A DNA stretch of 64,000 nucleotides. Origin: an uncultured Spirochaetota bacterium. Its GTDB lineage: Bacteria; Spirochaetota; Brevinematia; Brevinematales; JAOACQ01. The position numbers were made by a program, and so were the translations under genes. Below are positions 12,754 through 62,057 of this stretch, piece after piece; the stretch's first letter is position 1; each line of letters starts with the position of its first letter. The stretch lies in the NCBI GenBank assembly GCA_963783575.1, contig CAWAOD010000009.1:444153-508152 (forward strand), written 5' to 3'. Below the pieces are notes generated by a model. That model made no database searches. It saw only the letters and a program-made list of their open reading frames with translations, and was not told the DNA's origin.

Positions 12754-15251
12754 TCAATTTGAAATCTCCGGTTTATTTGTAATATCGCCGATCAATTCCT
12801 GATAATTTTTACCCGTATAAACTGCATTTCCGTATATTGCAGCAATCCGCACAAGTTGAGGGATGCTCATATTTTCAGATTCCAGAAATAAAGGGATAAT
12901 ATAGAGCAGGCTTTCAACTCTGGTTTTGCTATTATTTATAGGAAGAAATTTAATGTTTCCCCTGAATATTTTTGATCCTTTTTGACTCCAGAGAGTAAAC
13001 ATACCGGAGAGTTTATCATCCTGATTGATTTTTGATTCGACCTGCATTGGCCCAAGATAACTGGCGGACGGGTCAGCTAAATGCAGGGACAGTTTGAGGC
13101 TTTTATCATAATATGCCAGGGCCCAACCGGCAAGATTTTCCTTACCCCTTGGAATAAATGGCTGAATAACTGAAAAATGGGCTCGCTGTTAGAAATATCA
13201 CCTGTATTATTTGTTTCAAAAACGGCGATCTGATAATACGGTTCGAAATTTTCAGGTTTATCACCGTAAATTTGTTTGGGAATTTCCCAAATATCGTCAC
13301 CGCTGTAAAAACTATCCTCATTTTCAACATGGTATTTGCATAAAACATCCGCTTGGATTTTTAAAAGGTTATACGGATAACGGTAATGCTTTTTTGTCCC
13401 TTCGGGAGCATTATTTTTAAAGAATCCCGGGAAAAGGGATTTATAAGCAAGCGCAACCGGATCATCGGGATCGGTAAGGTAATAATCAGTATCGCCAGAA
13501 TAAGCGTTTATAACCACTTTTACAGAATTCCGGATATAATTTAAAAACCCAAATCCGGACTTAAACTTTTCTGATATGGGAAATCTGTCCGATACTGTAT
13601 ATGCATCGATAATCCAGTACAATCCGCCATTTATAATAGTTATGTAAGGATCATTGTCATATTCCAGGAAAGGAAAAATCTTTTTAACCCTGTCCAGAAT
13701 CTGCCTGTGGTATATTATTGCGGAATCTTTTGTTATATAACTGCTGAGGAGAATATTTTTTTCATTAAACTCGGCTGAATAAAATAATTTTTTGAAAAAT
13801 CCGTCAAGTTTTACGCCCCTTTTCAGGTCATATCTTGTTGTAATTCTGTTTGTAGATGCGGTATAGTCAAATTCATCGGCTTTTGTGTTTATAATTATAT
13901 AATTACTGGTAAGCTCCCCAAAATAAATCCGGTTTTCCATTACGTTAAAATCATTGTATATTGGTTTTTGATCAAGATTTTCAAACCAAAAAACTGGATT
14001 GCCCTCATTATCGGCAAGAAAAGACGGCGATATAACTACTCCAAAGCCATGGGTATACCTGAGGTGGATATTATCCCAGTTCAATGAATCGGCAGGAATG
14101 GCCCCGATATTCAATTCTCTTGCGGATAACACAACCTGGGAAAGTTTTTCACGCCCCTTTTCGTCAGAGCCTGATTCCGCCGAATAAGCATCTATATCAA
14201 CATCATTGAATGTAAAATATGTTTTGATGCTCTGAACCTGGTTAATGACCCTTTTATAAGGATCGCTGTCCCAGATGCGGAGTGTGCTGAAAATATCGCC
14301 TATCTGTTTTTTCAAATTATTATATTCCGGATAGTACAGCGGAGAAAAACTAATTCCAAAACCGTATCTTGTCGCTTCAATCCGGTCTTTTATAAAGCTT
14401 CTCTGTACCATTATTTCATTGGGTTTTACATAAAGGTTATCCAGCAAATATGGGTAAAGTCCTGTTAATCCGAAATAAAACAGGATCAATAATCCCGGGA
14501 AAACTACCAGGTTAAGGATACTTAAACCGGAATTCTTCCTTAGTAAAGCAATTATCGAAAAAATAATAACTAAACCTATCCATATGAAATTACCGTAAAA
14601 ATTTCCGAAAAAGACTACATAATCGACTCCTAGTCTTGGATTCGGCTGGACAATAAGTTTTTCCAGTATCAGGCTGGCATAATATAATAAACCTGAAATT
14701 AATGCCAATACGTAACTTATGATTGATGAAGAGGCAAGAAAAATTTTTCCGCCGCGGATTTGAGCCTTTCCGCCTTCTTTATGGAGAATTAAGTTAAGCG
14801 CCAGTACTAATATAAAAAAAGTAAAAATCATCAGGAGAATTTGCCTGATTAAGGGAAGTTCGAACATATAAAAAAATGCGTTCAGATGAAAAAAGGGATC
14901 GCTATATCCGGATTCGATATGCAGGGGTTTGTAGATCAGGTATTTCCACCCCGATAATCCCCAGAAACCATATCCGGCGGCTATTAAAAGAAATATGATG
15001 CTTAAAATCAGATTCAACCTAATCCTTCTTATAACATAAAACCAGATAAAAAACATAAATAAAAAAATAAGAAATGGCAACAAAAAGTATATAGATTTGA
15101 TAAAAATTAGCCTGTAAAATATACCGGTATATCCCACGCTGCTAAACCAGAGCCATTCGGTAATATAATGAAAAATAAATTGATGGCAAATCACAAATAA
15201 TATAACAATTGATATTAGGACTGCACTAATAGTAATTAAAATTTTTTTCAT
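12754..15251 (-). CDS. UPF0182-family large membrane protein, split by an apparent -1 frameshift at a C4/G4 homopolymer (13145-13148)
   Basis: The 724-aa ORF (13077..15251) has 7 N-terminal TM helices and a long soluble domain. The 97-aa ORF (12754..13047) continues the C-terminal conserved block (PLFLESE..MSIPQLVRIAAIYGNAVYTGKNYQEL). Adding one G at the GGGG run gives a continuous ...SHLFQGGKENLAGWALAYYDKS... joint. Confidence 0.5.
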
Positions 15252-15949
15252 TATCTATCCTTTAAGTTATTTTTCCCAATTAAAAAACTTAACAGATTGA
15301 TTTCGTTTTCCAGGAATCCCAGGCTTAAAAGCTCTTCTTTTGTTTTTCCCCTTTTAATAAGGGTTTTTAACCGCTCGCTTCTGGGTAATTCATCCAGATT
15401 TACGGTTTCGGATTCCTCAATATGTTCATACAGAGCATTTTTAGGAAATATTTCCTCTTTATTAATTTTTCGATCCTGACCTTCCTTAACTCCTTCTTTC
15501 ATCAAACTTGGTGCTGCATCAGTATATCGCTCGGCTTCATTACCATGAGGAATGTTTGTTTTTGAGGCTCTTTGCTTAAGATCATTAATCCTTATTCCAA
15601 TATTAGGAGCTCTGGCAGATTCTTCTTTATGCTTTTTATCCTGTTTTGCGGCTGTCTTTTTTTCAACTAATTTTTCAATAACAATGGGTTTATTAGCTCT
15701 GTCGATTTTTTCATCAAGCTGCAATATTTTATTGTTTGCTTTTTTCATTATTTCCTGCAGTTCATTAATTTTACCTTCAATTAGCTCGATATTCCTTGCA
15801 GCGGCGCTGTTAAATTCAGTAATAAGGCCTTCAAGCTCTTTTTTGGAATCATCAATGATGATGTTTTCTTTAATATTTTTGATTTTATTGTTAGTAAGAA
15901 AAAACAGATAAACTGCAGTGCCGAAAATCAAAAGCGATACAAATATTTC
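15251..15949 (-). CDS. membrane-anchored coiled-coil protein
   Basis: Start moved to the internal ATG at 15949, which has an AAGGCGG RBS. One N-terminal TM (FVSLLIFGTAVYLFFL) is followed by a long charged heptad-rich region (ELQEIMKKANNKILQLDEKIDRANK...). The stop overlaps the UPF0182 start. Confidence 0.45.
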   Translation of the reverse strand, partial: EIFVSLLIFGTAVYLFFLTNNKIKNIKENIIIDDSKKELEGLITEFNSAAARNIELIEGKINELQEIMKKANNKILQLDEKIDRANKPIVIEKLVEKKTAAKQDKKHKEESARAPNIGIRINDLKQRASKTNIPHGNEAERYTDAAPSLMKEGVKEGQDRKINKEEIFPKNALYEHIEESETVNLDELPRSERLKTLIKRGKTKEELLSLGFLENEINLLSFLIGKNNLKDR

Positions 15950-16178
15950 CATTAGAAAACCGCCTTTATAACAAGCATACCATGGTACAAAAATAAAACG
16001 GAATAATAATATAATCCTTCTCGGTTTAAAAATCAAGGATAACAATTAACCAAAATCTTGATTAAATAAAATTACCCATTAAAATGTATTGATGAAATTT
16101 ATATAATCCGGATAATAGATGAATATATTGAAGTAAAAGCTTAAACTTTGTGAAAACTTTATTTTATTAAGGGGCGTA

Positions 16179-30559: not shown

Positions 30560-31171
30560 TTAGAATTTTCCGAATTCAAATCTTACTCCAAAGTCAAAGC
30601 CGTAAAGATTGGAATCCGTGATACCGTTAAAACTTACCGGTCCGTAAATGTAATGATAACCGCTGAAAATTGCCACTCTCATCCATTTTATAATGTTGAT
30701 TTCTGCTCCAATTTCACCCTCAAGCGAGAAAAATGACATCATATTAATATTATGATTATCATGACTATAATAACTTCCGTTTGTAACTTCACTGGCGCCT
30801 CCTGCCCCGATGATCGTTTTAATATAGGGGTGAATAACATTTTCGGGAGCATATATATAACCCAGTAATAGACCTCCCCATCCCATATAAATACGGCTGT
30901 TATTAGTGGAGTTTAATGGAGTTACAACTCCTTTCCCTTCACCGCCGATAATAAACTGATGGTTAATAATCATTCCTCCTTCACCTCCGGAAATATAACA
31001 AACCTGGTTGTTCATATAAATACCCTGAAAAATGGGTCCTCCGTATCCGCCCAGAGATAAATCTTTATTGTCAAATAAGGTATTCGGTTCATACCTGCTG
31101 TTAAGATTATCTTCTGCGAAAATAAGAACCGCAAACATAACTAAAATTATAATTATGTATAGTCGTTTCAT
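30560..31171 (-). CDS. small exported beta-barrel-like protein (OmpW/OmpA-beta-barrel-like)
   Basis: Signal peptide MKRLYIIIILVMFAVLIFA, Gly/Tyr-rich alternating pattern, ends ...RFEFGKF. Confidence 0.45.
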   Translation of the reverse strand: MKRLYIIIILVMFAVLIFAEDNLNSRYEPNTLFDNKDLSLGGYGGPIFQGIYMNNQVCYISGGEGGMIINHQFIIGGEGKGVVTPLNSTNNSRIYMGWGGLLLGYIYAPENVIHPYIKTIIGAGGASEVTNGSYYSHDNHNINMMSFFSLEGEIGAEINIIKWMRVAIFSGYHYIYGPVSFNGITDSNLYGFDFGVRFEFGKF

Positions 31172-31522
31172 TTTCTTCCTCCAAAAATAAATTCTTTCTT
31201 ATTAAATATCGCAATTCTTATGCCACAATTAAGATCAATAATACCTTTGTTCAAAATAATTGCAGGATATTAAATGAATAAGGTAAAATAAAAATTTATA
31301 AATAATAATTATCCTTTATATTCTAATAGTCCAATTATCATTATAAATCCGGTTTGATATATCATTTTTGAAAATATGAAAAAATTCATTTATTTTGGAG
31401 AAGTAACTTTTTTTGACAAAAATCCATCATATTAATAAACTTAACAATGTTTGAAATAAAAAATTTCCAGCCTTTAATATTTCTAAATAATAATCGCAAT
31501 ATTTTAATTTCCGGGGGTAATT

Positions 31523-32513
31523 ATGGGAATGTTTGACGGAATGAAGAAACAGCTCAAATCTGTAATTCAGTGGGAAAACCCGAATCCTGATGCTCTTTTT
31601 TACCGCTGGTCCGATAACGGTGATGAAATTAAAAATGCTTCAAAGTTAATAGTTGGGCCGGGTCAGGGTTGTATTTTTGTTTATGAAGGCAGGGTAGAAG
31701 GTGTATACGTAAAACCTGGATTAGTTGAATTAAAAACCTCGAATATTCCGTTTATAACAACAATTATCAAATTCATGCAGGATTTTGTCAGCGAGCATAA
31801 AGTCGGCATCTATTTTTTCAGGACAACCCAGATTCTGGATCAGAAATGGGGCACACCCGCTACTATTAAATACGAAGACCCGAAATATAAATTCCCTGTA
31901 AGTCTTAGGGCTTTTGGCAATTATACTTTACGGATATCTGACGGTGGATTTTTCTTTGTTAATGTAACCGGCGCTTCCGAAGAATACAAAATTAGTCAGA
32001 TCCGCGAACCGATAAATTCAAGGCTGGTCCAGCCGTTAACAGAATACCTTGCATCTTCAAAATTTTCATATGCCGATATCGATTCAAACAGGGAAATAAT
32101 CGCCCATGACCTTTCCGCAAAATTTACTGATGAATTTAATAAACTGGGATTTGAATTATCGGATTTCAGGATTGAGGGGACAAGCTTCGATGAAGATACT
32201 ATGCGCAGGATTAACCGTATTGCTGACATGTCGGCTGAAGCGCAGGCTGCGGATAAAGCCGGTGTAAGTTTTGCCCAGCTTCAACAGCTCGAAGCGATGC
32301 GAGACGCAGCTAAAAATGAAGGTACAGCCGGATTCGGCATGGCAATGGGCGTCGGGATGGGCTTTGGCCAGTTAGCCGGCAATATAGCAATACAGCAGCC
32401 GGCAGAGGATCCGGCGGTAAAGCTTAAAAAACTTAAAGGCCTGCTTGACCAGGGGGCTCATCAACAATCAGGAATATGAAGCAAAGAAAAAGGAAATATT
32501 ATCTCAAATATAA
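31523..32513 (+). CDS. SPFH/Band7_1-family (YdjI-like) protein with C-terminal SHOCT domain. The 3' end needs a one-base correction at the G5 run 32452-32456.
   Basis: N-terminal FDGMKKQLKSVIQWENPNPDALFYRWSDNGDEIKNASKLIVGPGQGCIFVYEG and the internal DQKWGT, RAFGNYTLRI and GMGFGQ blocks match the Band_7_1 (B. subtilis YdjI) family. After removing one G, the tail reads KLKKLKGLLDQGLINNQEYEAKKKEILSQI, a canonical SHOCT motif, with the stop at 32513. Confidence 0.65.
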
Positions 32514-32519
32514 ATAATT

Positions 32520-34385
32520 ATGGGGGGTATCATGCACCGTAATCTTAGAAAATTTATTGCAATACTTTCTTTTATTTTTCTTATAGCAGTCTCTCCGCTT
32601 TTTCCCAGGGCCGGAGGATCAGGAGGCGGGCACGGCCATTTCAGCGGAGGACATAGTCATAGTGGGGGCGGACATTTCGGCAGTTTCGGATCGCATACCG
32701 GGTCATTTTCCGGAGGTAGAAACAGCGGACCATTAGAATTTAATGCAGTGTCTATTATTTTTATGTTATTTTTTTTCGGAATACCGCTTTTTGTTATTAT
32801 TATGATATTAATCGTCGCATTTAAACCTAAAAAAACCGGATTTAAATCAATATCAGCAGTTATGCCCGAAAAACTTGAAGATGTTCCCGGATACAATGAA
32901 TTTATCGAAAGCAATCCCGATTTTAATGCCGAAGAATTTCAAAAAAAGGTCAAATCGGCTTTTGTTGAAATTCAGGAAGCTTGGAGTAAAGGGAACATAG
33001 GCGCTTCCCGCAGATTTATGACGGATGGAGTCTATCAGCGGTTTTCCAGCCAGCTTCAAATGATGGGGCTTTTAAAACAGAAAGACATTATTACTGATAT
33101 AGACGTTTCCAGTGTCAATATTATCTGCGCTGAAATTGACGGTCAATATGATATAATTCATACAATGATAGAAGCTGAAATGGATGACCAGTTTGTGAGT
33201 GAAACAGACCACTCACTTGATTCTCCCGGAGATACCGATGATTTTACAGAAGTCTGGTCTTTTATAAGAAAGCGCGGTAAAGGCGGGAAGGATATTTTTT
33301 CAAGTAATAATTGTCCTCAATGTTCCGCACCGCTGCCCGAAAACCTAGGCGACGCCGGGCAATGCCCATACTGCAAAACTTTTATCAATAATGCCGAATA
33401 TGACTGGGTCCTATCGGAAATATCCCAAACAGACGATTACCATCTAAGTGCAGGAAAGTCTGACAAATCAGAGGGTCTTTTTGATTCTGCTTACGAGATG
33501 CATAAAGATAATCCTGATTTCTGCATTCAATTACTTGAGGATAAAGTTTCCAACGGCTATCTGCAGATACAGACCGCAATGGCGTTTCATGACCCTCAGT
33601 GGTTCCGCAGGTTTGTTTCCGATGAATTATTTGAAAAGCTTAAAGTCCGTCTACCCTCGGAAAATATAGTATATAACCGCCTCTACCTTAATGATGTCTC
33701 GCTAATGGCAATCAGGCAAACTGAAAACACGAACATTATGTATGTCGGTGTAAAGTCAACTTTTCAGAGGGTGATTCTTGAAAACGGCATGGCTAGGCTG
33801 AAGGACCATGTTTTAATGACTGATTTTGAGGTTGTCCGGATTGAACGCGGCCGTTTGGCAGGAATTTCAAAGGGTTCTGTATATGCACACCTCTGTCCTG
33901 GCTGCGGAGCCCCAGTTTCCGATTCACTGGAGTTAAAATGCGCCTATTGCGGAACATTATTGAACAGCTCAGTTCATGAATGGATCATTACGGATATTCT
34001 GGCCAGGGAAGATTATGATTCCCATATCAAGGATGTTCAACCGCAAATCGGCGCAAAAATTCCATCCGGCCTTGATGATTCCCTGTATGAAGTAAGGGAT
34101 TACGCCTTCAATAATATGATGGTTATCTTCGGCGCAGACGGGATTTTTGCCGATGAAGAAAAAGCCATGGCCGAGGGGTTGGCAAAAAAATGGGGCTATA
34201 AAAAAGAATTTATTGCCAGGATTGTTGAAGCCGCAATGTCAGGAAGGCTGTCGATCAGGATGCCCTCTGATAAAATAAAGACAAGAAAGATTCTTGAATT
34301 GATGAATAAAGCCGCTATGGCTGATGGAAAAATCGACCCCGCTGAAAAGCAGATTCTTGATCAGATTACAAAGCAATATTTATAG
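32520..34385 (+). CDS. membrane protein: Gly/His-rich N-terminus + TM + [Tim44-like domain + zinc ribbon] x2 + C-terminal TerB-like domain
   Basis: GGSGGGHGHFSGGHSHSGGGHFGSFGSH, then a TM helix. Two CPxC...CxYC zinc ribbons (CPQCSAPL...CPYCKT and CPGCGAPV...CAYCGT), each preceded by about 120 aa resembling bacterial Tim44-like domains. C-terminal ADGIFADEEKAMAEGL...ADGKIDPAEKQILDQI is TerB-like. Confidence 0.55.
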   Translation: MGGIMHRNLRKFIAILSFIFLIAVSPLFPRAGGSGGGHGHFSGGHSHSGGGHFGSFGSHTGSFSGGRNSGPLEFNAVSIIFMLFFFGIPLFVIIMILIVAFKPKKTGFKSISAVMPEKLEDVPGYNEFIESNPDFNAEEFQKKVKSAFVEIQEAWSKGNIGASRRFMTDGVYQRFSSQLQMMGLLKQKDIITDIDVSSVNIICAEIDGQYDIIHTMIEAEMDDQFVSETDHSLDSPGDTDDFTEVWSFIRKRGKGGKDIFSSNNCPQCSAPLPENLGDAGQCPYCKTFINNAEYDWVLSEISQTDDYHLSAGKSDKSEGLFDSAYEMHKDNPDFCIQLLEDKVSNGYLQIQTAMAFHDPQWFRRFVSDELFEKLKVRLPSENIVYNRLYLNDVSLMAIRQTENTNIMYVGVKSTFQRVILENGMARLKDHVLMTDFEVVRIERGRLAGISKGSVYAHLCPGCGAPVSDSLELKCAYCGTLLNSSVHEWIITDILAREDYDSHIKDVQPQIGAKIPSGLDDSLYEVRDYAFNNMMVIFGADGIFADEEKAMAEGLAKKWGYKKEFIARIVEAAMSGRLSIRMPSDKIKTRKILELMNKAAMADGKIDPAEKQILDQITKQYL

Positions 34386-34496
34386 GCCGATTCGGACGGC
34401 AAAAAAAATAGAATATAAAGCAGGCTTTATTGTTTACCTTAATATGATCAGGATGTTAATGGATATTTTATATTATAAATATGAGTGGATTCTTGT

Positions 34497-36380
34497 ATGA
34501 ATAGAGTTGTTTTCCTGTCATTCATTTTTCTCTTATCTCCATTTTTTTCTTTTATCTCAGCAAGCAATTCAATAATTATTCATGATTATGAAAAACGGAC
34601 TGATTTTAGCGGAGTATATTCGGTATTAATACAAAAAGGCGATAATCCAGGCTATAAGGAAACGGATTATGATGATTCCGGATGGAATATTGTCTCATTA
34701 CCTTCCAGCTGGAATGTTTATCCTTTTCATCATTATAGCGGTATCTGCTGGTACAGGATTCGCATTAAATTTCCGGATAGTCTGCCCGGAAGAGCATTGG
34801 GTATAAATCTGGGCGAGATATATGACGCCGATGAGACTTATTTTAACGGAACCCTGATTGGCAGCTGCGGAAGTGTTACAAATTCATCCGGACATGCTTA
34901 TGATAAGTACAGGATTTATGAAATACCGACAGAATTGATTAAACCCGGTAAGAATAATGTTGTTGCAGTAAGGGTAAGAAACTATTTTCCTGAAGAAAGC
35001 GGAATGATTGACGGCCAGTATTTTATCGAAAGGTATGACAAACTTCTTATCAATCATTATTCAATAGATTATATAAAACTTTTCTTTGTAATTTCTTTTA
35101 TCTTAATCGGTGCAAATTATTTTCTAAATTATTCAAGAAAAAGGAAATGGAATGAATATCATGTCTTCAGTTTATTTTGTTTTATGGTTTCTGTTTATTT
35201 TTTCCTTCAAACCGATATAAAATATTTTCTTTTTGATAATTTTCTTATATTGAAAAAAATTGAATATCTTGATCTGATAGCATTAATGCCAATCTTTCTC
35301 TACTTTTTTATGTTATATTTCAATCAAAAAACCGGTATAGTCCAGTATTTTTTTTATGCATCTTCGGCTGTATGTTTTATTATTGTCCTAATCACAGGAG
35401 AACCCGTTGTCTGGAATTTCATAAACATTAATTATTTCCAATACACATGGCTTATCGGAATTGTGACCATATTTATAATATTGATTAAGGAGTTTCACAA
35501 ATCCGCGGCTAAACTTATTTTCTTTTCATTTATTGTGATGATATTTTCCTTGATATATGATGTTCTTCATTTAAGGAATATTCTCGAACTGCCGGCATTG
35601 ATACCATTTGGGATGCTTACCGCATATGGATTTCTAGTTTTTATTATCTGTATAGCATTTATTCTATCAAATGATTTCATTCAACTATTAAAAGAAGTTG
35701 AAATCAAGTCTTTCGATCTGCAGATAGCTTTAAAAGAAAGAGATCAGGCCTTCGAACAAATAGATTTTGCTTATGTTGAAGCTTTACAAAGGCTCGCTGT
35801 TATGGCGGAACTGAGAGATACCGAAACAAGCGGTCATATTAAAAGGGTAAGCCTTTATGTAAAACTATTGGCGGAAAAATTAGAACTGGATAAGAATTTT
35901 ATAGAATATGTCACATATGCTTCACCTCTTCATGATGCCGGGAAAGTAGGAATCCCAGACAGCATTCTTTTTAAGAACGGGCCTCTGAACTCCAGTGAAT
36001 GGCAGATAATGAAAACTCACACAACTATTGGCGGAAAAATTTTTGAGGGCGCTCAATCCGCAGTATTGAAATTCGCCAGGGAAATCGCTTTAAGCCACCA
36101 TGAAAAATGGAACGGCGGCGGATATCCTTATGGATTGAAGCAATTCAATATACCGCTTTCGGGCCGGCTGATGGCAATGGCCGATGTTTATGACGCTTTG
36201 CGAAGCAGGAGGCCTTATAAACAAGATATACCGCATAACAAAGCGATTGATATCATTACAAACGGAGATAACCGGGTTAAACCGGAGGATTTCGATCCGA
36301 AAATTCTGGAAATATTTATAAAATATTCCAATGTTTTTGAAGAGATTTATGAAAAACACACCGATTTAATAAATAATTGA
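34497..36380 (+). CDS. 7TM receptor with extracellular 7TMR-DISMED2-like domain and cytoplasmic HD-GYP phosphodiesterase
   Basis: Signal peptide, about 170-aa extracytoplasmic beta-rich domain, 7 hydrophobic helices, then HDAGKVGIPDSIL, HHEKWNGGGYPYGL and ADVYDALRSRRPYK. Confidence 0.8.
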   Translation: MNRVVFLSFIFLLSPFFSFISASNSIIIHDYEKRTDFSGVYSVLIQKGDNPGYKETDYDDSGWNIVSLPSSWNVYPFHHYSGICWYRIRIKFPDSLPGRALGINLGEIYDADETYFNGTLIGSCGSVTNSSGHAYDKYRIYEIPTELIKPGKNNVVAVRVRNYFPEESGMIDGQYFIERYDKLLINHYSIDYIKLFFVISFILIGANYFLNYSRKRKWNEYHVFSLFCFMVSVYFFLQTDIKYFLFDNFLILKKIEYLDLIALMPIFLYFFMLYFNQKTGIVQYFFYASSAVCFIIVLITGEPVVWNFININYFQYTWLIGIVTIFIILIKEFHKSAAKLIFFSFIVMIFSLIYDVLHLRNILELPALIPFGMLTAYGFLVFIICIAFILSNDFIQLLKEVEIKSFDLQIALKERDQAFEQIDFAYVEALQRLAVMAELRDTETSGHIKRVSLYVKLLAEKLELDKNFIEYVTYASPLHDAGKVGIPDSILFKNGPLNSSEWQIMKTHTTIGGKIFEGAQSAVLKFAREIALSHHEKWNGGGYPYGLKQFNIPLSGRLMAMADVYDALRSRRPYKQDIPHNKAIDIITNGDNRVKPEDFDPKILEIFIKYSNVFEEIYEKHTDLINN

Positions 36381-37076: not shown

Positions 37077-38709
37077 TTAAAACAAACCGCTGATGTTGCC
37101 GCTATCATCGATATCAATGTTCATAGCTGCCGGAGTTTTAGGTAATCCGGGCATAGTCATTATTTTTCCCGTCTGAATAACTACAAATCCAGCCCCGGCT
37201 GATACGCGGGCACTGCTTACATTGATTCTGAAGCCCTTCGGACGGCCGGTAAGTTTGGGATTATCCGATAAAGAAGACTGAGTTTTTGCCATACAGACCG
37301 GGAGATTGCCGTAACCCAGGTTTTCGATCCTTTCAATCTGGTTCCTGGCTTCGGATGAATATTCAACACCGTCAGCGCCGTAAATTTCACTGGCAATGGT
37401 TTCTATTTTCTGCCTGATACTTTGGTTTAATTCATATAAAAACTTAAAATCTTCTTTATTTGAAGAATTATCCGGGGATGTGATCGTGCATATCCTTTCA
37501 GCCAGCTCAAGGCCGCCTTCTCCGCCTTTTTCACGGAAATCGGTGATCATCGCTTCAACACCGGCATCTTCACATTTTGATAGAATGTTTTTCAGTTCAT
37601 CCAGGTTGTCGTCCTCGAATTTATTGATTGAAATTACAACAGGGATATTGAATTTTCGAATGTTTTCGACATGCTTGAGGATATTTTCCATCCCATGGAG
37701 TACATCAGCCCTTCTAGTAACAACCAGTACGGCGGCGGCCGGATGAAGATTCCCCAACCTGCATTTAATATCAAAAAATTTCTCAGCTCCAAGATCGGCA
37801 CCGAATCCGGCTTCTGTTACCGTATAGTCCGACAGCTTCATAGCCATTCTTGTCGCTATTATGGTGTTACAGCCATGCGCAATATTGGCAAAAGGCCCGC
37901 CGTGGACAAAGACAGGTGTTCCTTCAATCGTCTGGACAAGATTAGGGTGTACCGCATTTTTTAACAGGGCGGCCATGGCCCCCTGTACGCCAAGATCGCC
38001 GGTAAAAACCGGTTTTTTTAAATAATCGTAGCCTACAATGATCTTCCCAATCTTTTCCTTCAGTTCTTTCAGATTATTGGAAAGGCAGAGAATTGCCATG
38101 ATTTCTGATGATGCGGTAATATCAAATCCGTCCTCCCTCATTACGCCATTCTGGCCTCGTTCGTCAAGACCGACCAGGATGCTTCGGAGAGACCTGTCGT
38201 TCATGTCTATGGCCCGCCTCCAGATAACCTGCCGCGGATTCATTTCGGGAAGGTTTTTCTGGTGCAGATGGTTGTCTATTATTGATGAAAGAAGATTATG
38301 AGCTGTTGTTACGGCATGTAGATCGCCGGTAAAATGAAGATTAATTTCCTCCATCGGTAAAACCTGCGAATAACCTCCGCCGGCCGCGCCGCCTTTTACA
38401 CCCATGCATCGGGCCCAGTGAGGGTTCCCGTATGGCAATCATCGCTTTTTTGCCGATTTTAGACAGCGCCTGTCCAAGGCCTATGGTATTTGTGGTTTTG
38501 CCTTCTCCCATTGAAGTCGGTGTCATAGCAGTAACAAGTATTAATTTAGCATCCGGCTTATCGTAGTAACACTCAAGCATTGTGTTCGGAACTTTTGCTA
38601 TGTATTTCCCATAATGGATCAGGTCGTTTTCCATCAGTCCGAGCTGTTCTGCAATCTCACCGATAGGCCGCATTTTTGATTTTTGAGCAATCTCAATATC
38701 AGGTATCAT
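37077..38709 (-). CDS. fhs: formate--tetrahydrofolate ligase, split by a 1-nt frameshift at the GGGCCC site about 38409-38416
   Basis: The 122-aa ORF carries PTSMGEGKTTNTIGL and EPSLGP. The 453-aa ORF starts inside GVKGGAAGGGYSQVLPMEEINLHFTGDLHAV. Both are hallmark FTHFS blocks. Removing one base restores EPSLG-x-CMGVKGGAAGGGY with the correct spacing. Confidence 0.8.
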
Positions 38710-38721
38710 AATTTCCGCCCT

Positions 38722-59547: not shown

Positions 59548-60063
59548 ATGGAAGAAAGCATTATGAATCACATGAAAACATTTAAGGATTTGCTTTCTCA
59601 TGAGGCTGATGCCTTATCATACCTGGAGAAGCTTGAGAATCAAAAGTTTGACGCGCTTAAACAGGTTGATATCAAAAAGTTGATGCGCATCAATTCCGAT
59701 GAGGAGGAAATGCTGCACAAGCTTGAAGTTATTGAAAAGAAGAGGAAAAATCTTATTCTTCTCCTTTCAGAAGCTTTCAGTTTTGATCCCTGTGTTTCAC
59801 TTTCCGAGCTTTTTACCTACCTTCCCGATGAAGAATATAAATCATATAAAAATGAGTTATCTGAACTGAGAAATACTATAAAGGGATTTACCGAAAAATT
59901 GCAAGTCACGATGCATGAAAATTCGGAAATGATAAGAACAAATCTCGATATCATAAACCTGACGCTTAATTTTGCAAATCGGAATTCCCAGAAAGAGACA
60001 TACGGATACCGGGATAAAAAAGAAAGCCGTGAAAATATTTACCTGGTTAATCAAATAGCGTAA
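59548..60063 (+). CDS. flgN: flagellar export chaperone FlgN-like
   Basis: 171-aa helical protein directly upstream of flgK. Shows the FlgN-like pattern (ALSYLEKLENQKFDALKQVDIKKL). Confidence 0.5.
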   Translation: MEESIMNHMKTFKDLLSHEADALSYLEKLENQKFDALKQVDIKKLMRINSDEEEMLHKLEVIEKKRKNLILLLSEAFSFDPCVSLSELFTYLPDEEYKSYKNELSELRNTIKGFTEKLQVTMHENSEMIRTNLDIINLTLNFANRNSQKETYGYRDKKESRENIYLVNQIA

Positions 60064-60155
60064 TAATCGCTGGCTTTTAGCAGTTTTATAAGATAAATAA
60101 TTGTGGGTCAAGCCTCGGGCTTTACCGTGCCGATGGCACGTTTTAGGAGAAAAGA

Positions 60156-62057
60156 ATGCTTTCAACATTTCATGGGATTGAAGTCGGGAAAAAAGGACTG
60201 ATGGCAAACAATATGGGCCTTGATACTACGGGCCATAACCTGTCAAATATAGATACCGAAGGTTATTCCCGCCAGAAAGTAAATCTTACAGCGACAAGCC
60301 CACTTTACGAACCGGGCGCAAACCGCGTTGAAATGGCAGGCCAGATCGGTACAGGTGTTGCCGTTGAGGATATTCAACGGGTCCGGGACCAGGCGATAGA
60401 CGACCGTATCAATTTCGAGAAAGGCGGGCTTGGATTCTGGGGGATGAAACAGCAGTTTCTGCACCAGATTGAAATGATTCAGAATGAGCCTGGAAAGCCG
60501 AATATCCGCACTGTAATGGATGAATACTGGGAAAGCTGGCAGAAGGTCGCCTCAGATCCGACGGAAAGGGCTTCCCGTGAAGAACTTGTTCAGCGAACTC
60601 AGGCAATGACTGAAACTTTTAACCACAGCTTCAATTCTTTGTATGACTTAAGAAAAAACGCGGATAATCTTGTGGATCAGAGGATCAATGAAATAAACAA
60701 CATGGCATCGGAAATTGCGAATCTCAACCTGCAGATAGTTAAGTCTGAAGCTATGGGCGACAAGCCGAACGATCTTTACGACAGAAGGGATTTGCTGGTC
60801 GATAAACTCGCGAAGAATGTAGATATACGTGTTGAAAGGAACAATAAGCATGAACTGATTGTTTACATTGGTATGGAAAATCTTGTCCAGGGGGACCTTG
60901 TCAATAAAATCAATGGCGTCGGAAATACGGGGAATGACGGTTTTCTCGATGTGAAATGGAGGGACGGAAGGTCTGTGGCTCTTGGGAATGGCGAATTGGC
61001 GGGGCTTGTTTCCGCAAGGGACGACGATATCAAAATAGCTATACAAAATATAGATTCCTTATCAGCCAATATTGTGGATTCCACAAATGAAATTCATAAG
61101 GATGGATTTGGGTTGAATATGACAACCGATAATAAATTTTTTAAAGAAATGTCGGTAACGCCTTATGCTAATGGTGACTATGATTTTAATAATAACGGCA
61201 TTCCTAACGGGACGGCAATTTTCAAGGTAAGCGGAACCGAAAAAATTGATGAAAATACAGTGATCGGAAACGGCGGATTTCTTAATTTCGGTCCGGCAGT
61301 ACCCGGGGGAAATGATATAACTATCCAGTATAACTCAATTGATAAAGTAAAAGATGTGATCGATAAAATAAATCAATCCGATGCCGGAGTCTCTGCTTAT
61401 TTAAATCAAAGAGGCCAGTTGTCATTCAAAGCAAAATACCCTTCCGACGACAGGTTTCATCCGTTTGTCATCCGGCATATTGAAGATAGCGGAAATTTCC
61501 TTGTCGGAATAGCCGGTCTGCTCCATCAATCCGGGGCACAGGGCGCTTTTGATTACAGAACAGCGGGTAATCTTGTAAAATTCAATGTACCCGGTTTTAA
61601 TGTGACATTTACTCCCGAAAATCATCCATCGGTATGGATGGCGCTGGACGATAAAATAAAGTCCAACCCCGATTCTATTGCAGCCGCGGGTGCCATTGAT
61701 ACAGCAGGGGATGGAAAACCTGACCGAGTCAACGGCCTTGGTGACAACAGAAACGCGCTGGCTATAGCCGAATTAAGAAATAAAAAAATCATGGTGGAAA
61801 GTTCTTCCACATTCGGTGAATTTACAAAGGCCATGGTAGGCGATTTCGGGACGCGTTCGGAATCGGCCAAGGTAAATATGGATAAAAATCAGGCTGTGGT
61901 CGACAGTCTTGTGAATTTAAGAAAAGAGATCAGCGGAGTTAACGTTGATGAAGAAATGACAAAAATGATCATGTTCCAGCATGGTTATAACGCATCTGCG
62001 AGGCTGGTTTCGACAATTGATAGAATGATTGAAACAGTAATAAGGATGGGAGCGTAA
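60156..62057 (+). CDS. flgK: flagellar hook-associated protein 1
   Basis: MLSTFHGIEVGKKGLMANNMGLDTTGHNLSNIDTEGYSRQ N-terminus. The C-terminus ends in a rod/hook-like helical segment. Confidence 0.88.
   Translation: MLSTFHGIEVGKKGLMANNMGLDTTGHNLSNIDTEGYSRQKVNLTATSPLYEPGANRVEMAGQIGTGVAVEDIQRVRDQAIDDRINFEKGGLGFWGMKQQFLHQIEMIQNEPGKPNIRTVMDEYWESWQKVASDPTERASREELVQRTQAMTETFNHSFNSLYDLRKNADNLVDQRINEINNMASEIANLNLQIVKSEAMGDKPNDLYDRRDLLVDKLAKNVDIRVERNNKHELIVYIGMENLVQGDLVNKINGVGNTGNDGFLDVKWRDGRSVALGNGELAGLVSARDDDIKIAIQNIDSLSANIVDSTNEIHKDGFGLNMTTDNKFFKEMSVTPYANGDYDFNNNGIPNGTAIFKVSGTEKIDENTVIGNGGFLNFGPAVPGGNDITIQYNSIDKVKDVIDKINQSDAGVSAYLNQRGQLSFKAKYPSDDRFHPFVIRHIEDSGNFLVGIAGLLHQSGAQGAFDYRTAGNLVKFNVPGFNVTFTPENHPSVWMALDDKIKSNPDSIAAAGAIDTAGDGKPDRVNGLGDNRNALAIAELRNKKIMVESSSTFGEFTKAMVGDFGTRSESAKVNMDKNQAVVDSLVNLRKEISGVNVDEEMTKMIMFQHGYNASARLVSTIDRMIETVIRMGA

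What the first reader, a model, noticed from the sequence alone, without database searches (positions are those of the whole stretch)
31523..34385. PspA-less membrane-stress-like pair: SPFH(Band7_1)-SHOCT protein plus a fused [Tim44-like + zinc-ribbon] x2 + TerB membrane protein
Gene 1 belongs to the YdjI-type SPFH family, with a SHOCT tail revealed after frameshift correction. Gene 2 combines in one 621-aa polypeptide a Gly/His-rich N-terminus and TM helix, a Tim44-like domain and zinc ribbon, a second Tim44-like domain and zinc ribbon, and a C-terminal TerB-like domain. In B. subtilis the equivalents are separate proteins (YdjG zinc ribbons, YdjH Tim44-like, YdjI SPFH) that tether PspA to the membrane. 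Here they are fused and duplicated, a TerB module is appended and no pspA is adjacent. This is a candidate variant of a poorly characterised membrane-remodelling or stress system.
Basis: partly seen in the sequence, partly recalled or inferred. Interest (0 to 1): 0.7.

Follow-up and report, generated by a model that had tools for sequence, protein, structure and literature searches.

The report
SPFH protein with Tim44-like membrane partner

Summary
Gene 1 (31523-32479) is a Band_7_1 SPFH protein. Its SHOCT tail is lost only through one extra G in a G-run (32452-32456), and an independent assembly of the same locus has the intact 329-aa gene.

- a signal-like helix;
- a Gly/Ser/His-rich stretch;
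- a TM helix;
- two copies of a Tim44-like NTF2 domain with an inserted 4-Cys zinc ribbon;
- a C-terminal TerB domain.

Gene 2 is not a one-off fusion. It belongs to a large family known only as "TIM44-like domain-containing protein", found in 380 species genomes.

The SPFH gene lies directly upstream in only one clade of that family: 17 of 17 testable loci, from Spirochaetota and Chlorobiaceae. Further metagenome pairs exist, including Bdellovibrio. No other clade shows it (0 of about 54 loci).

The Bacillus analogy is only partly right. YdjH is a TPM-domain protein, not Tim44-like. YdjG aligns with gene 2 only at a zinc ribbon. Only YdjI and gene 1 are homologous.

No PspA or TPM gene occurs in the window or in 80 related loci.

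Best reading: gene 2 is a membrane-anchored adaptor that holds the TM-less SPFH oligomer at the cytoplasmic face of the membrane. This is inferred, not shown.

The parts
31413..31441 (+). Promoter-like site (TTGACA, 17 nt, TAAACT) about 80 nt upstream of gene 1
   Evidence: Consensus scan, 10 of 12 matches. Weak evidence only.
31523..32513 (+). Gene 1, a cytoplasmic SPFH (Band_7_1)-SHOCT protein. It is 329 aa once the extra G is removed. As written in the window the ORF stops early at 32479 (318 aa).
   Evidence: No signal peptide or TM segment is visible in the sequence.
31601..32230 (+). Band_7_1 SPFH domain (aa 27-236)
   Evidence: Pfam PF13421, E 7.6e-41. 26% identity to a B. subtilis-type YdjI, E 1e-26.
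32318..32398 (+). Gly/Met/Ala-rich low-complexity linker (aa ~266-292)
   Evidence: Read from the sequence. YdjI has a comparable Met/Gly-rich stretch.
32452..32456 (+). GGGGG run carrying one extra G, which is the frameshift site
   Evidence: This is the only difference from the independent assembly L001 across 5,988 nt.
32420..32501 (+). SHOCT domain (corrected aa 300-326), split by the frameshift
   Evidence: Pfam PF09851, 29.8 bits against a cut-off of 27 on the corrected protein. The tail is conserved in all 16 SPFH neighbours of related loci.
32520..34385 (+). Gene 2, the membrane protein (621-aa ORF). The likely start is 32532, 18 nt after the corrected stop of gene 1 and preceded by GGGGGG.
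   Evidence: AlphaFold model with mean pLDDT 79.7 and pTM 0.78.
32532..32603 (+). N-terminal signal-like or first hydrophobic helix (aa 5-28), preceded by R7, R10 and K11
   Evidence: Model helix 5-27. Whether it is cleaved is inferred, not tested.
32607..32618 (+). Invariant R-A-G-G motif (aa 30-33). Most homologues read A-R-A-G-G, which resembles an AxA signal-peptidase site.
   Evidence: R30, A31, G32 and G33 are invariant in 36 sequences.
32613..32729 (+). Gly/Ser/His-rich low-complexity stretch (aa 32-70), predicted to lie outside the cytoplasm
   Evidence: Sequence. pLDDT about 20. G+S+H fraction is 0.8 here and 0.65-0.9 in paired Chlorobiaceae homologues.
32736..32819 (+). Transmembrane helix (aa 73-100), followed by KPKK
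   Evidence: Model helix 73-100. The positive-inside rule places the rest of the protein in the cytoplasm (inference).
32892..33281 (+). Tim44-like NTF2 domain 1 (aa 125-254)
   Evidence: Pfam PF04280, E 2.3e-17. Foldseek top PDB hit is the human Tim44 C-domain 2cw9.
33303..33389 (+). Zinc ribbon 1 (C265, C268, C282, C285), inserted before the last strand of domain 1
   Evidence: The four Cys are invariant. The strand that follows, aa 297-303 (33408-33428), returns to the sheet in the model.
33507..33854 (+). Tim44-like NTF2 domain 2 (aa ~330-445)
33885..33965 (+). Zinc ribbon 2 (C459, C462, C474, C477), followed by the closing strand aa 489-495 (33984-34004)
   Evidence: Invariant Cys. Pfam DZR and Zn_ribbon_3 hits are below cut-off here, but DZR hits all 36 members.
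34071..34379 (+). TerB-like helical domain (aa 518-620) with two A-D-G...E motifs
   Evidence: Pfam PF05099 scores 27.8-28.3 bits on the isolated domain, above the cut-off of 24.4, and 18 of 25 members hit it. PDB sequence profile: 2ou3 E 0.0057 and 2jxu TerB E 0.066. The model shows five helices.

Best explanation
The two genes form a small operon for a complex on the cytoplasmic face of the inner membrane.

Gene 2 is anchored by one TM helix, with a short Gly/Ser/His-rich tail or loop outside. It places a compact cytoplasmic body against the inner leaflet. That body consists of two Tim44/mL45-like NTF2 domains, each carrying a zinc ribbon, and a TerB domain.

Gene 1 is an SPFH protein with no membrane anchor of its own. 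Gene 2 recruits and organises its oligomer at the membrane, in the way YdjG and YdjH recruit YdjI in B. subtilis. The assembly acts in membrane organisation or envelope-stress protection without needing an adjacent PspA.

Shown by computation: the domain anatomy, the internal duplication, the predicted topology elements, and the clade-specific conserved adjacency.

Inferred: the physical interaction, lipid binding by the Tim44-like domains, and the stress role.
For: - Anatomy.
- Gene 1 has no TM segment or signal peptide. Its characterised relative YdjI is soluble and needs YdjG and YdjH to reach the membrane (Scholz et al. 2021, PMC8581546). Gene 1 and YdjI are homologous.
- Tight linkage: 18 nt separate the corrected gene 1 stop from the likely gene 2 start. 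Gaps are 2-55 nt in 16 other loci, and the genes overlap in L091.
- All 17 testable members of the gene 2 clade that contains the window have the SPFH-SHOCT gene directly upstream. They come from Spirochaetota and Chlorobiaceae.
- Further pairs occur in metagenome contigs, including a 6.2-Mb contig and Bdellovibrio.
- The best structural matches, Tim44 and mL45, are membrane-associated proteins of the mitochondrial inner membrane (their membrane role is from my own knowledge).
- TerB is also the membrane-proximal domain of the inner-membrane co-chaperone DjlA (PMC11709261).
Against: - No interaction was tested or modelled.
- About 54 testable gene 2 homologues in other clades have no SPFH gene within 10 kb and no other conserved neighbour. 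Gene 2 can therefore work without an adjacent gene 1.
- Gene 1 orthologues at 59-65% identity also occur without gene 2. Some follow a PQQ beta-propeller gene. One stands alone after a sigma-70 gene. Some sit in a Band_7-Band_7-J-domain operon.
- No expression or phenotype data exist for any member.
- The link to stress rests on analogy with one Bacillus protein that is 26% identical.
Confidence: 0.45

Rival explanations
1. The two proteins act independently. Gene 2 is a stand-alone membrane protein, for example a lipid-binding or metal/redox-sensing factor that uses its Tim44-like pockets, eight zinc-binding Cys, TerB domain and His-rich outer tail. The SPFH gene simply shares a transcript with it in one lineage.
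For: Most gene 2 homologues are solo genes with variable neighbours. Gene 1 orthologues occur in at least three other contexts. TerB is present or absent independently of pairing.
Against: Adjacency is kept in 17 of 17 testable loci of a clade that spans two phyla, with very short gaps or overlap. It also appears in Bdellovibrio with a diverged, TerB-less partner. That is hard to explain without a functional link.
Confidence: 0.27
2. It is a true Psp-type system. The pair recruits a PspA/IM30 (ESCRT-III-like) protein encoded elsewhere in the genome, as YdjGHI do in Bacillus.
For: Gene 1 is in the same Pfam family as YdjI, which bridges PspA to the membrane. Ravi et al. 2024 note that band-7 operons may work with PspA homologues encoded elsewhere (PMC11237479).
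Against: No PspA appears in the 64-kb window or within +/-10 kb of 80 related loci, using either E. coli or Bacillus PspA as query. None appears among the helical window ORFs scanned against Pfam. There is no TPM-domain partner. Gene 2 is not homologous to YdjH and shares only a zinc ribbon with YdjG. The C-terminal tails differ: SHOCT here, a zinc ribbon in YdjI.
Confidence: 0.13
3. The pair scaffolds membrane protein quality control. The SPFH ring and the Tim44/TerB adaptor bring the DnaK-DnaJ chaperone system, or a protease, to the membrane.
For: In two metagenome contigs, gene 1 orthologues at 64-65% identity sit in an operon with two Band_7 proteins and a small J-domain protein with two C-terminal TM helices. 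TerB is the membrane-proximal domain of the J-protein DjlA. Tim44 tethers Hsp70 in mitochondria, and other SPFH rings gate proteases such as HflK/C-FtsH (my own knowledge).
Against: There is no J-domain, DnaK or protease gene next to the pair in the window or in any paired locus. In mitochondrial Tim44 the Hsp70 contacts lie mainly in the N-terminal half, not in the NTF2-like domain conserved here (my own knowledge). The J-domain context was seen in only two, probably related, contigs.
Confidence: 0.1
4. It is an anti-phage defence or mobile-element module.
For: SPFH, SHOCT and zinc-ribbon domains do turn up in some defence contexts (my own knowledge).
Against: Neither protein gives a meaningful PADLOC match: gene 2 has none, and gene 1 has only a chance-level hit (E 0.005, 14 bits) to a type II restriction-enzyme model. 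There are no relatives in 2.9 million viral contigs. The flanks are housekeeping genes such as recA, formate-THF ligase and a HIT protein. Flanks in related loci are variable and not island-like.
Confidence: 0.03

Closest known systems
B. subtilis PspA-YdjG-YdjH-YdjI system (Scholz et al. 2021, PMC8581546; Ravi et al. 2024, PMC11237479)
   Same: Both have a TM-less Band_7_1 SPFH protein encoded next to a membrane protein that carries zinc ribbons and a Gly-rich extracytoplasmic end. YdjI and gene 1 are homologous (E 1e-26). The proposed logic is also the same: a membrane partner recruits a soluble SPFH protein.
   Different: There is no PspA and no TPM-domain YdjH equivalent. Gene 2 is not a fusion of YdjG and YdjH: YdjH is a TPM-domain protein, and YdjG aligns only at one zinc ribbon. 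The SPFH tail is SHOCT here and a zinc ribbon in YdjI. The system has two genes rather than four.
Tim44 C-terminal domain, mitoribosomal mL45, and bacterial Tim44-like proteins (Pfam PF04280; NCBIfam TimA / Tim44_TimA_adap)
   Same: Both NTF2-like domains of gene 2 match Tim44 and mL45 best among all PDB folds. Domain 1 passes the Pfam cut-off. The signal-like helix, Gly-rich stretch and TM helix ahead of the domain resemble other bacterial Tim44-like proteins (my recollection, not tested).
   Different: The domain is duplicated. Each copy has a 4-Cys zinc ribbon inserted before its last strand. A TerB domain is appended. The NCBIfam TimA-type models score far below their cut-offs (39.9 against 80, and 20.3 against 200).
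TerB / DjlA N-terminal TerB-like domain (PF05099)
   Same: The C-terminal ~100 residues are helical with two A-D-G...E motifs. They score above the Pfam cut-off as an isolated domain. As in DjlA, the domain belongs to an inner-membrane-anchored cytoplasmic protein.
   Different: The domain is at the far C-terminus rather than next to the TM helix. There is no ter operon and no J-domain. Similarity to solved TerB structures is weak (E 0.006-0.07), and fold comparison could not confirm it separately.
SPFH operon pairs in general (stomatin-NfeD, HflK/C-FtsH, flotillin-YqiJ/YuaF)
   Same: An SPFH scaffold protein is encoded next to a dedicated membrane partner (my own knowledge; partly covered in PMC11237479).
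   Different: The partner here is a different protein type. The SPFH protein itself lacks a membrane anchor.
Band_7_1-SHOCT architecture (Eberhardt et al. 2013, PMC3581485)
   Same: Gene 1 has exactly the domain combination reported as the commonest SHOCT architecture.
   Different: That paper does not mention a Tim44-like neighbour: a search of its text for 'Tim44' found nothing.

Membership tests
Band_7_1 SPFH family (PF13421) | Match to the Pfam model above its gathering score | tested here: met
   140.5 bits against a cut-off of 24, aa 27-236.
SHOCT (PF09851) | C-terminal bihelical motif above the gathering score | tested here: met
   29.8 bits against 27 after removing one G. The gene is intact in independent assembly L001. 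In the window as written it is disrupted.
Tim44-like domain (PF04280), first copy | Pfam match above cut-off and a Tim44-like NTF2 fold | tested here: met
   63.9 bits against 29.6. Foldseek top hit is 2cw9.
Tim44-like domain, second copy | Homology to the first copy and a Tim44-like fold | tested here: met
TerB (PF05099) | Pfam match above the gathering score of 24.4 bits | tested here: met
   22.2 bits in the full protein, which is below the cut-off. 27.8-28.3 bits for the isolated domain, and 18 of 25 homologues hit at E <= 1e-3. The fold was not confirmed separately, so support is moderate.
TimA / Tim44_TimA_adap (NCBIfam NF033778, NF033779) | Score above the curated cut-off | tested here: not met
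   39.9 against 80 and 20.3 against 200. Gene 2 is related to this subfamily but is not a member.
Psp system of the PspA-YdjGHI type | PspA/IM30 gene in the operon or nearby | tested here: not met
   No hit with E. coli PspA at E <= 10 or with Bacillus PspA at E <= 1, in the window or in 80 loci. No PF04012 among 10 candidate window ORFs. The rest of the genome could not be searched.
Psp system of the PspA-YdjGHI type | TPM-domain membrane partner (YdjH) | tested here: not met
   YdjH is a TPM_phosphatase protein. It has no homologue in the window or the loci.
Psp system of the PspA-YdjGHI type | YdjG-like partner (two zinc ribbons, an NTF2-like domain and a TM helix) | tested here: inconclusive
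   Only a 30-residue zinc ribbon aligns, at probability 61%. Ravi et al. describe an NTF2-like domain in YdjG, but I could not compare folds.
Psp system of the PspA-YdjGHI type | YdjI-type Band_7_1 protein | tested here: met
   BLASTP 26% identity over 227 aa, E 1e-26.
Known anti-phage defence systems (PADLOC) | Match to any PADLOC model | tested here: not met
   Gene 2 has no match. Gene 1 has only a chance-level hit (E 0.005, 14 bits).

The most novel reading that the evidence does not exclude
Gene 2 is a bacterial Tim44-like tether that works with an SPFH ring to bring the DnaK/J-protein chaperone machinery to the inner membrane. That would be a bacterial counterpart of the membrane-bound Tim44-Hsp70 arrangement of mitochondria.

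Three hints point this way:
- The best fold matches are Tim44 and mL45.
- The appended TerB domain is otherwise the membrane-proximal domain of the J-protein DjlA.
- Gene 1 orthologues in another lineage sit in an operon with two Band_7 proteins and a membrane-anchored J-domain protein.
Probability: 0.1. Interest if true: 0.75.

Novelty: new variant of a known kind. Interest (0 to 1): 0.45.

Why it matters
Bacterial Tim44-like proteins are widespread and have no established function. TM-less SPFH proteins of the Band_7_1 type are understood in a single case, B. subtilis YdjI. If the Tim44-like protein is the membrane receptor for the SPFH-SHOCT protein, three things would follow:
- Bacterial Tim44 homologues would gain a first functional context.
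- SPFH recruitment modules would be shown to exist independently of PspA.
- A defined two-gene system, present in Chlorobiaceae, Spirochaetota and Bdellovibrio relatives, would become available for testing how SPFH scaffolds are positioned on membranes.

It would not change the current picture of Psp systems, because the link to them is only the shared SPFH family.

Tried and rejected
- **Fusion of YdjG and YdjH:** rejected after I recovered a Bacillus-type pspA-ydjGHI locus from a metagenome using the published ydjG primer sequence.
- **Programmed frameshift in gene 1:** rejected. The independent assembly and all homologues are in frame. The window has a second frameshift, in formate-THF ligase.
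- **PspA search:** single-sequence phmmer with E. coli and Bacillus PspA, plus Pfam on 10 helical or unannotated window ORFs, all negative. This is less sensitive than a full Pfam scan of every ORF, and it covers only 64 kb of the genome.
- **Defence-system reading:** no meaningful PADLOC match and nothing in viral contigs.
- **TerB by fold:** both PDB searches of the C-terminal-half model were dominated by NTF2-like hits, and TerB did not appear in the top 50-60. hhalign against E. coli DjlA was weak, at probability 33%.
- **afdb50 fold search:** the library was unavailable.
- **Anantharaman et al. 2012 on Ter systems:** the paper was not held.
- **Organism name:** not obtainable. The cluster look-ups carry no names. 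The nearest gene 2 relatives are Spirochaetota MAGs.
- **Conserved third partner:** clustering of neighbours across 80 loci found none. The downstream 7TMR-DISM/HD-GYP gene is not conserved with the pair.
Full report
**What is in the sequence**

The window carries two same-strand ORFs at exactly the stated coordinates: 31523-32479 (318 aa) and 32520-34385 (621 aa). They lie between unrelated genes. Upstream on the opposite strand are recA and a 203-aa Gly-rich secreted-looking protein. Downstream on the same strand is a 7TMR-DISM/HD-GYP protein, followed by a HIT protein and formate-THF ligase.

**Gene 1**

Gene 1 matches Pfam Band_7_1 at E 7.6e-41. Its reading frame ends early. Removing one G from the GGGGG run at 32452-32456 extends it to a TAA at 32511-32513. 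The result is a 329-aa protein whose last ~30 residues match SHOCT above the Pfam cut-off.

An independent assembly of the same locus, L001 from run ERR11594402, is identical over 5,988 nt except for GGGG at that spot. It carries the intact 329-aa gene. Nearly all of the 120 closest homologues are ~329 aa with a SHOCT hit, and all 16 SPFH neighbours in related loci end in the same KLxKLKxxLDxxLIxxxEYxxKKxxIL tail.

The window also has a frameshift in formate-THF ligase near 38440-38470. The gene 1 frameshift is therefore an assembly indel or a very recent mutation. Band_7_1 plus SHOCT is already on record as the commonest SHOCT architecture (PMC3581485).

**Gene 2**

A 36-sequence alignment shows full-length conservation. 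The AlphaFold model is confident outside the low-complexity N-terminus, with mean pLDDT 79.7 and pTM 0.78. In order, the protein has:

- a basic N-terminus and hydrophobic helix (aa 5-28);
- an invariant R-A-G-G, which reads A-R-A-G-G in most members and resembles an AxA signal-peptidase site;
- about 40 residues of Gly/Ser/His;
- a TM helix (aa 73-100) followed by KPKK;
- a Tim44 domain (Pfam E 2.3e-17, aa 125-254);
- a 4-Cys zinc ribbon;
- a beta-strand that returns to the sheet;
- a second helix-plus-sheet domain, a second zinc ribbon and a closing strand;
- a five-helix C-terminal domain.

Pfam does not see the second domain. A profile comparison of module 1 against module 2 gives probability 99.5% and E 3.7e-23 over 171 columns. 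A control of module 1 against the C-terminal domain gives 0.7%.

The TerB assignment is moderately supported:

- 22.2 bits in the whole protein, below the cut-off of 24.4;
- 27.8-28.3 bits for the isolated domain;
- 18 of 25 homologues' C-terminal domains hit TerB at E <= 1e-3;
- the best PDB sequence matches are two TerB-family structures, at E 0.006 and 0.07.

Fold searches could not confirm TerB separately, because NTF2-like hits filled the lists.

The basic N-terminus, the KPKK after the TM helix, the eight zinc-binding Cys and the lack of any export signal on gene 1 together argue that all folded domains are cytoplasmic and that only the Gly/Ser/His stretch is outside. This is an inference.

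**How common is gene 2, and is the pair conserved?**

Gene 2 is not a one-off fusion.

- The word-indexed search found 528 relatives, nearly all 600-620 aa. They carry only generic names such as "TIM44-like domain-containing protein".
- An exhaustive HMMER search of 1.84 billion cluster representatives found 1,008 at E <= 1e-30. They fall into two length classes: ~600-660 aa with TerB, and ~460-520 aa that stop before it.
- 380 species-representative genomes encode a relative. The best 80 are Spirochaetota/Leptospirales, Bacteroidota, Chlorobiaceae and one Myxococcota.

In those 80 loci a gene 1 homologue lies directly upstream in only 16: five Spirochaetota (Spirochaetes/Spirochaetales MAGs) and all eleven Chlorobiaceae. 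On a neighbour-joining tree these form a single clade together with the window. All 17 testable members of that clade are paired. None of about 54 testable members of the other clades is.

Closer metagenomic relatives are also paired. So are a 6.2-Mb contig and a Bdellovibrio MAG whose partner is a 495-aa version with both modules but no TerB.

Gaps between the two genes are 2-55 nt, or the genes overlap. Gene 1 is the better conserved of the two, at 59-67% identity against 42-48%. Outside the paired clade, neighbours vary and no other partner recurs.

From the gene 1 side, orthologues at 59-65% identity also occur without gene 2:

- after a PQQ beta-propeller gene;
- alone after a sigma-70 gene;
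- twice in an operon of two Band_7 proteins plus a 170-aa J-domain protein with two C-terminal TM helices.

The link is therefore strong within one clade but universal from neither side.

**The Bacillus comparison**

Using the ydjG primer printed in Scholz et al., I recovered a B. subtilis-type locus from a metagenome. It has the 3' end of pspA followed by ydjG, ydjH and ydjI. Pfam gives these results:

- YdjG: zinc ribbons only;
- YdjH: TPM_phosphatase, E 7.7e-22, with no Tim44 match;
- YdjI: Band_7_1 plus a C-terminal zinc ribbon.

Ravi et al. 2024 say the same and add that YdjG has an NTF2-like domain (PMC11237479). The gene 2 family profile aligns with YdjG only over one 30-residue zinc ribbon, at probability 61%. 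Gene 1 and YdjI are clearly homologous, with 26% identity and E 1e-26.

Neither PspA (E. coli or Bacillus query) nor YdjH finds anything in the window's ORFs or in the 80 loci. Ten helical or unannotated window ORFs scanned against Pfam include no PspA.

"No adjacent pspA" is therefore correct. "Fused and duplicated equivalents of YdjG/H" is not. Only the SPFH family, and the general idea that a soluble SPFH protein needs a membrane partner, connect the two systems.

**What it most likely does**

The best-supported reading is a two-protein complex beneath the membrane. Gene 2 is the membrane-anchored adaptor. Its Tim44/mL45-like domains sit against the inner leaflet. Together with the zinc ribbons they hold and organise the TM-less SPFH-SHOCT oligomer, which then acts in membrane organisation or envelope-stress protection.

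The support is the anatomy, the clade-wide operon conservation, and the experimentally shown dependence of YdjI on membrane partners in Bacillus (PMC8581546). The interaction, the lipid binding and the physiological role are all inferred. I put this at about 0.45.

The rivals are:

- independent functions that merely share a transcript in one lineage (0.27);
- a Psp-type system with PspA encoded elsewhere (0.13);
- a membrane proteostasis or chaperone-recruitment scaffold, prompted by the J-domain operon, by TerB in DjlA (PMC11709261) and by the Tim44 resemblance (0.10);
- anti-phage defence (0.03), disfavoured by the lack of any meaningful PADLOC match, by the viral-contig scan and by housekeeping flanks.

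**Novelty and verdict**

Each domain is known, and both protein families are already in the databases under generic names. Within the held library I found no description of three things: the double [Tim44-like plus zinc ribbon] architecture, its optional TerB, or its clade-specific pairing with Band_7_1-SHOCT. The library lacks most subscription journals, and the 2012 Ter-systems paper was not readable.

I class the finding as a new variant of a known kind: an SPFH protein with a dedicated membrane partner. It is a sound, moderately interesting lead, mainly because bacterial Tim44-like proteins have no known role.

Noticed in passing
window 37077-38760 (- strand), junction near 38440-38470: Formate-tetrahydrofolate ligase is split by a frameshift. 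The first ~100 residues (MIPDIEIAQ...REPSLGP) are in a different frame from the 453-aa ORF. This is a second indel within 6 kb of the gene 1 frameshift, so the assembly probably carries indel errors.
   Followed up: partly
L097 1414-4990 and L099 1450-4984: Gene 1 orthologues (64-65% identical) end a four-gene operon: Band_7, Band_7, a ~170-aa protein with an N-terminal J-domain and two C-terminal TM helices, then Band_7_1-SHOCT. This looks like an SPFH plus membrane J-protein module and appears uncharacterised.
   Followed up: partly
L093 7009-8496 (Bdellovibrio MAG) and many 460-520-aa hits: A shorter form of gene 2 has both Tim44-like/zinc-ribbon modules but no TerB domain. It is still directly downstream of Band_7_1-SHOCT.
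   Followed up: partly
L041 and L057 (Bacteroidota MAGs): Two tandem copies of the gene 2 homologue lie side by side, with no SPFH gene nearby.
   Followed up: no
Alignment A1 columns ~100-170; loci of the unpaired clades: Unpaired gene 2 homologues have a short Gly-rich stretch that ends in acidic GGD-DG. It is followed by a ~40-residue hydrophobic region with a conserved LPFPxN motif, possibly two helices. The paired clade instead has a long Gly/Ser/His-rich stretch and a single TM helix. The two subfamilies may differ in membrane topology.
   Followed up: partly
L083 8001-11273: The closest sizeable relative (67% identity) is also broken by a frameshift, into a 563-aa piece and a 64-aa TerB piece. 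Its locus also has a 149-aa gene and a Band_7 (PF01145) gene just downstream, which would be a possible second SPFH pair.
   Followed up: no
window 34485-36380 (+): A 7TMR-DISM_7TM plus HD-GYP (HD_5) protein starts 100 nt after gene 2 on the same strand. Homologues appear near gene 2 in only two other loci (L017, L037), and there they lie upstream. It is probably not part of the unit.
   Followed up: partly
window 30560-31171 (-) and 15251-16045 (-): Two ORFs have no Pfam match. One is a 203-aa protein with a signal-like N-terminus and Gly-rich repeats, divergent from gene 1. The other is a 264-aa helix-rich membrane protein next to a UPF0182 gene.
   Followed up: no
window 59548-62057 (+): FlgN (Pfam hit) is followed by a 633-aa ORF that looks like a flagellar hook-associated protein (not scanned). 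This fits a motile organism, and the gene 2 tree places the window among Spirochaetota MAGs.
   Followed up: no
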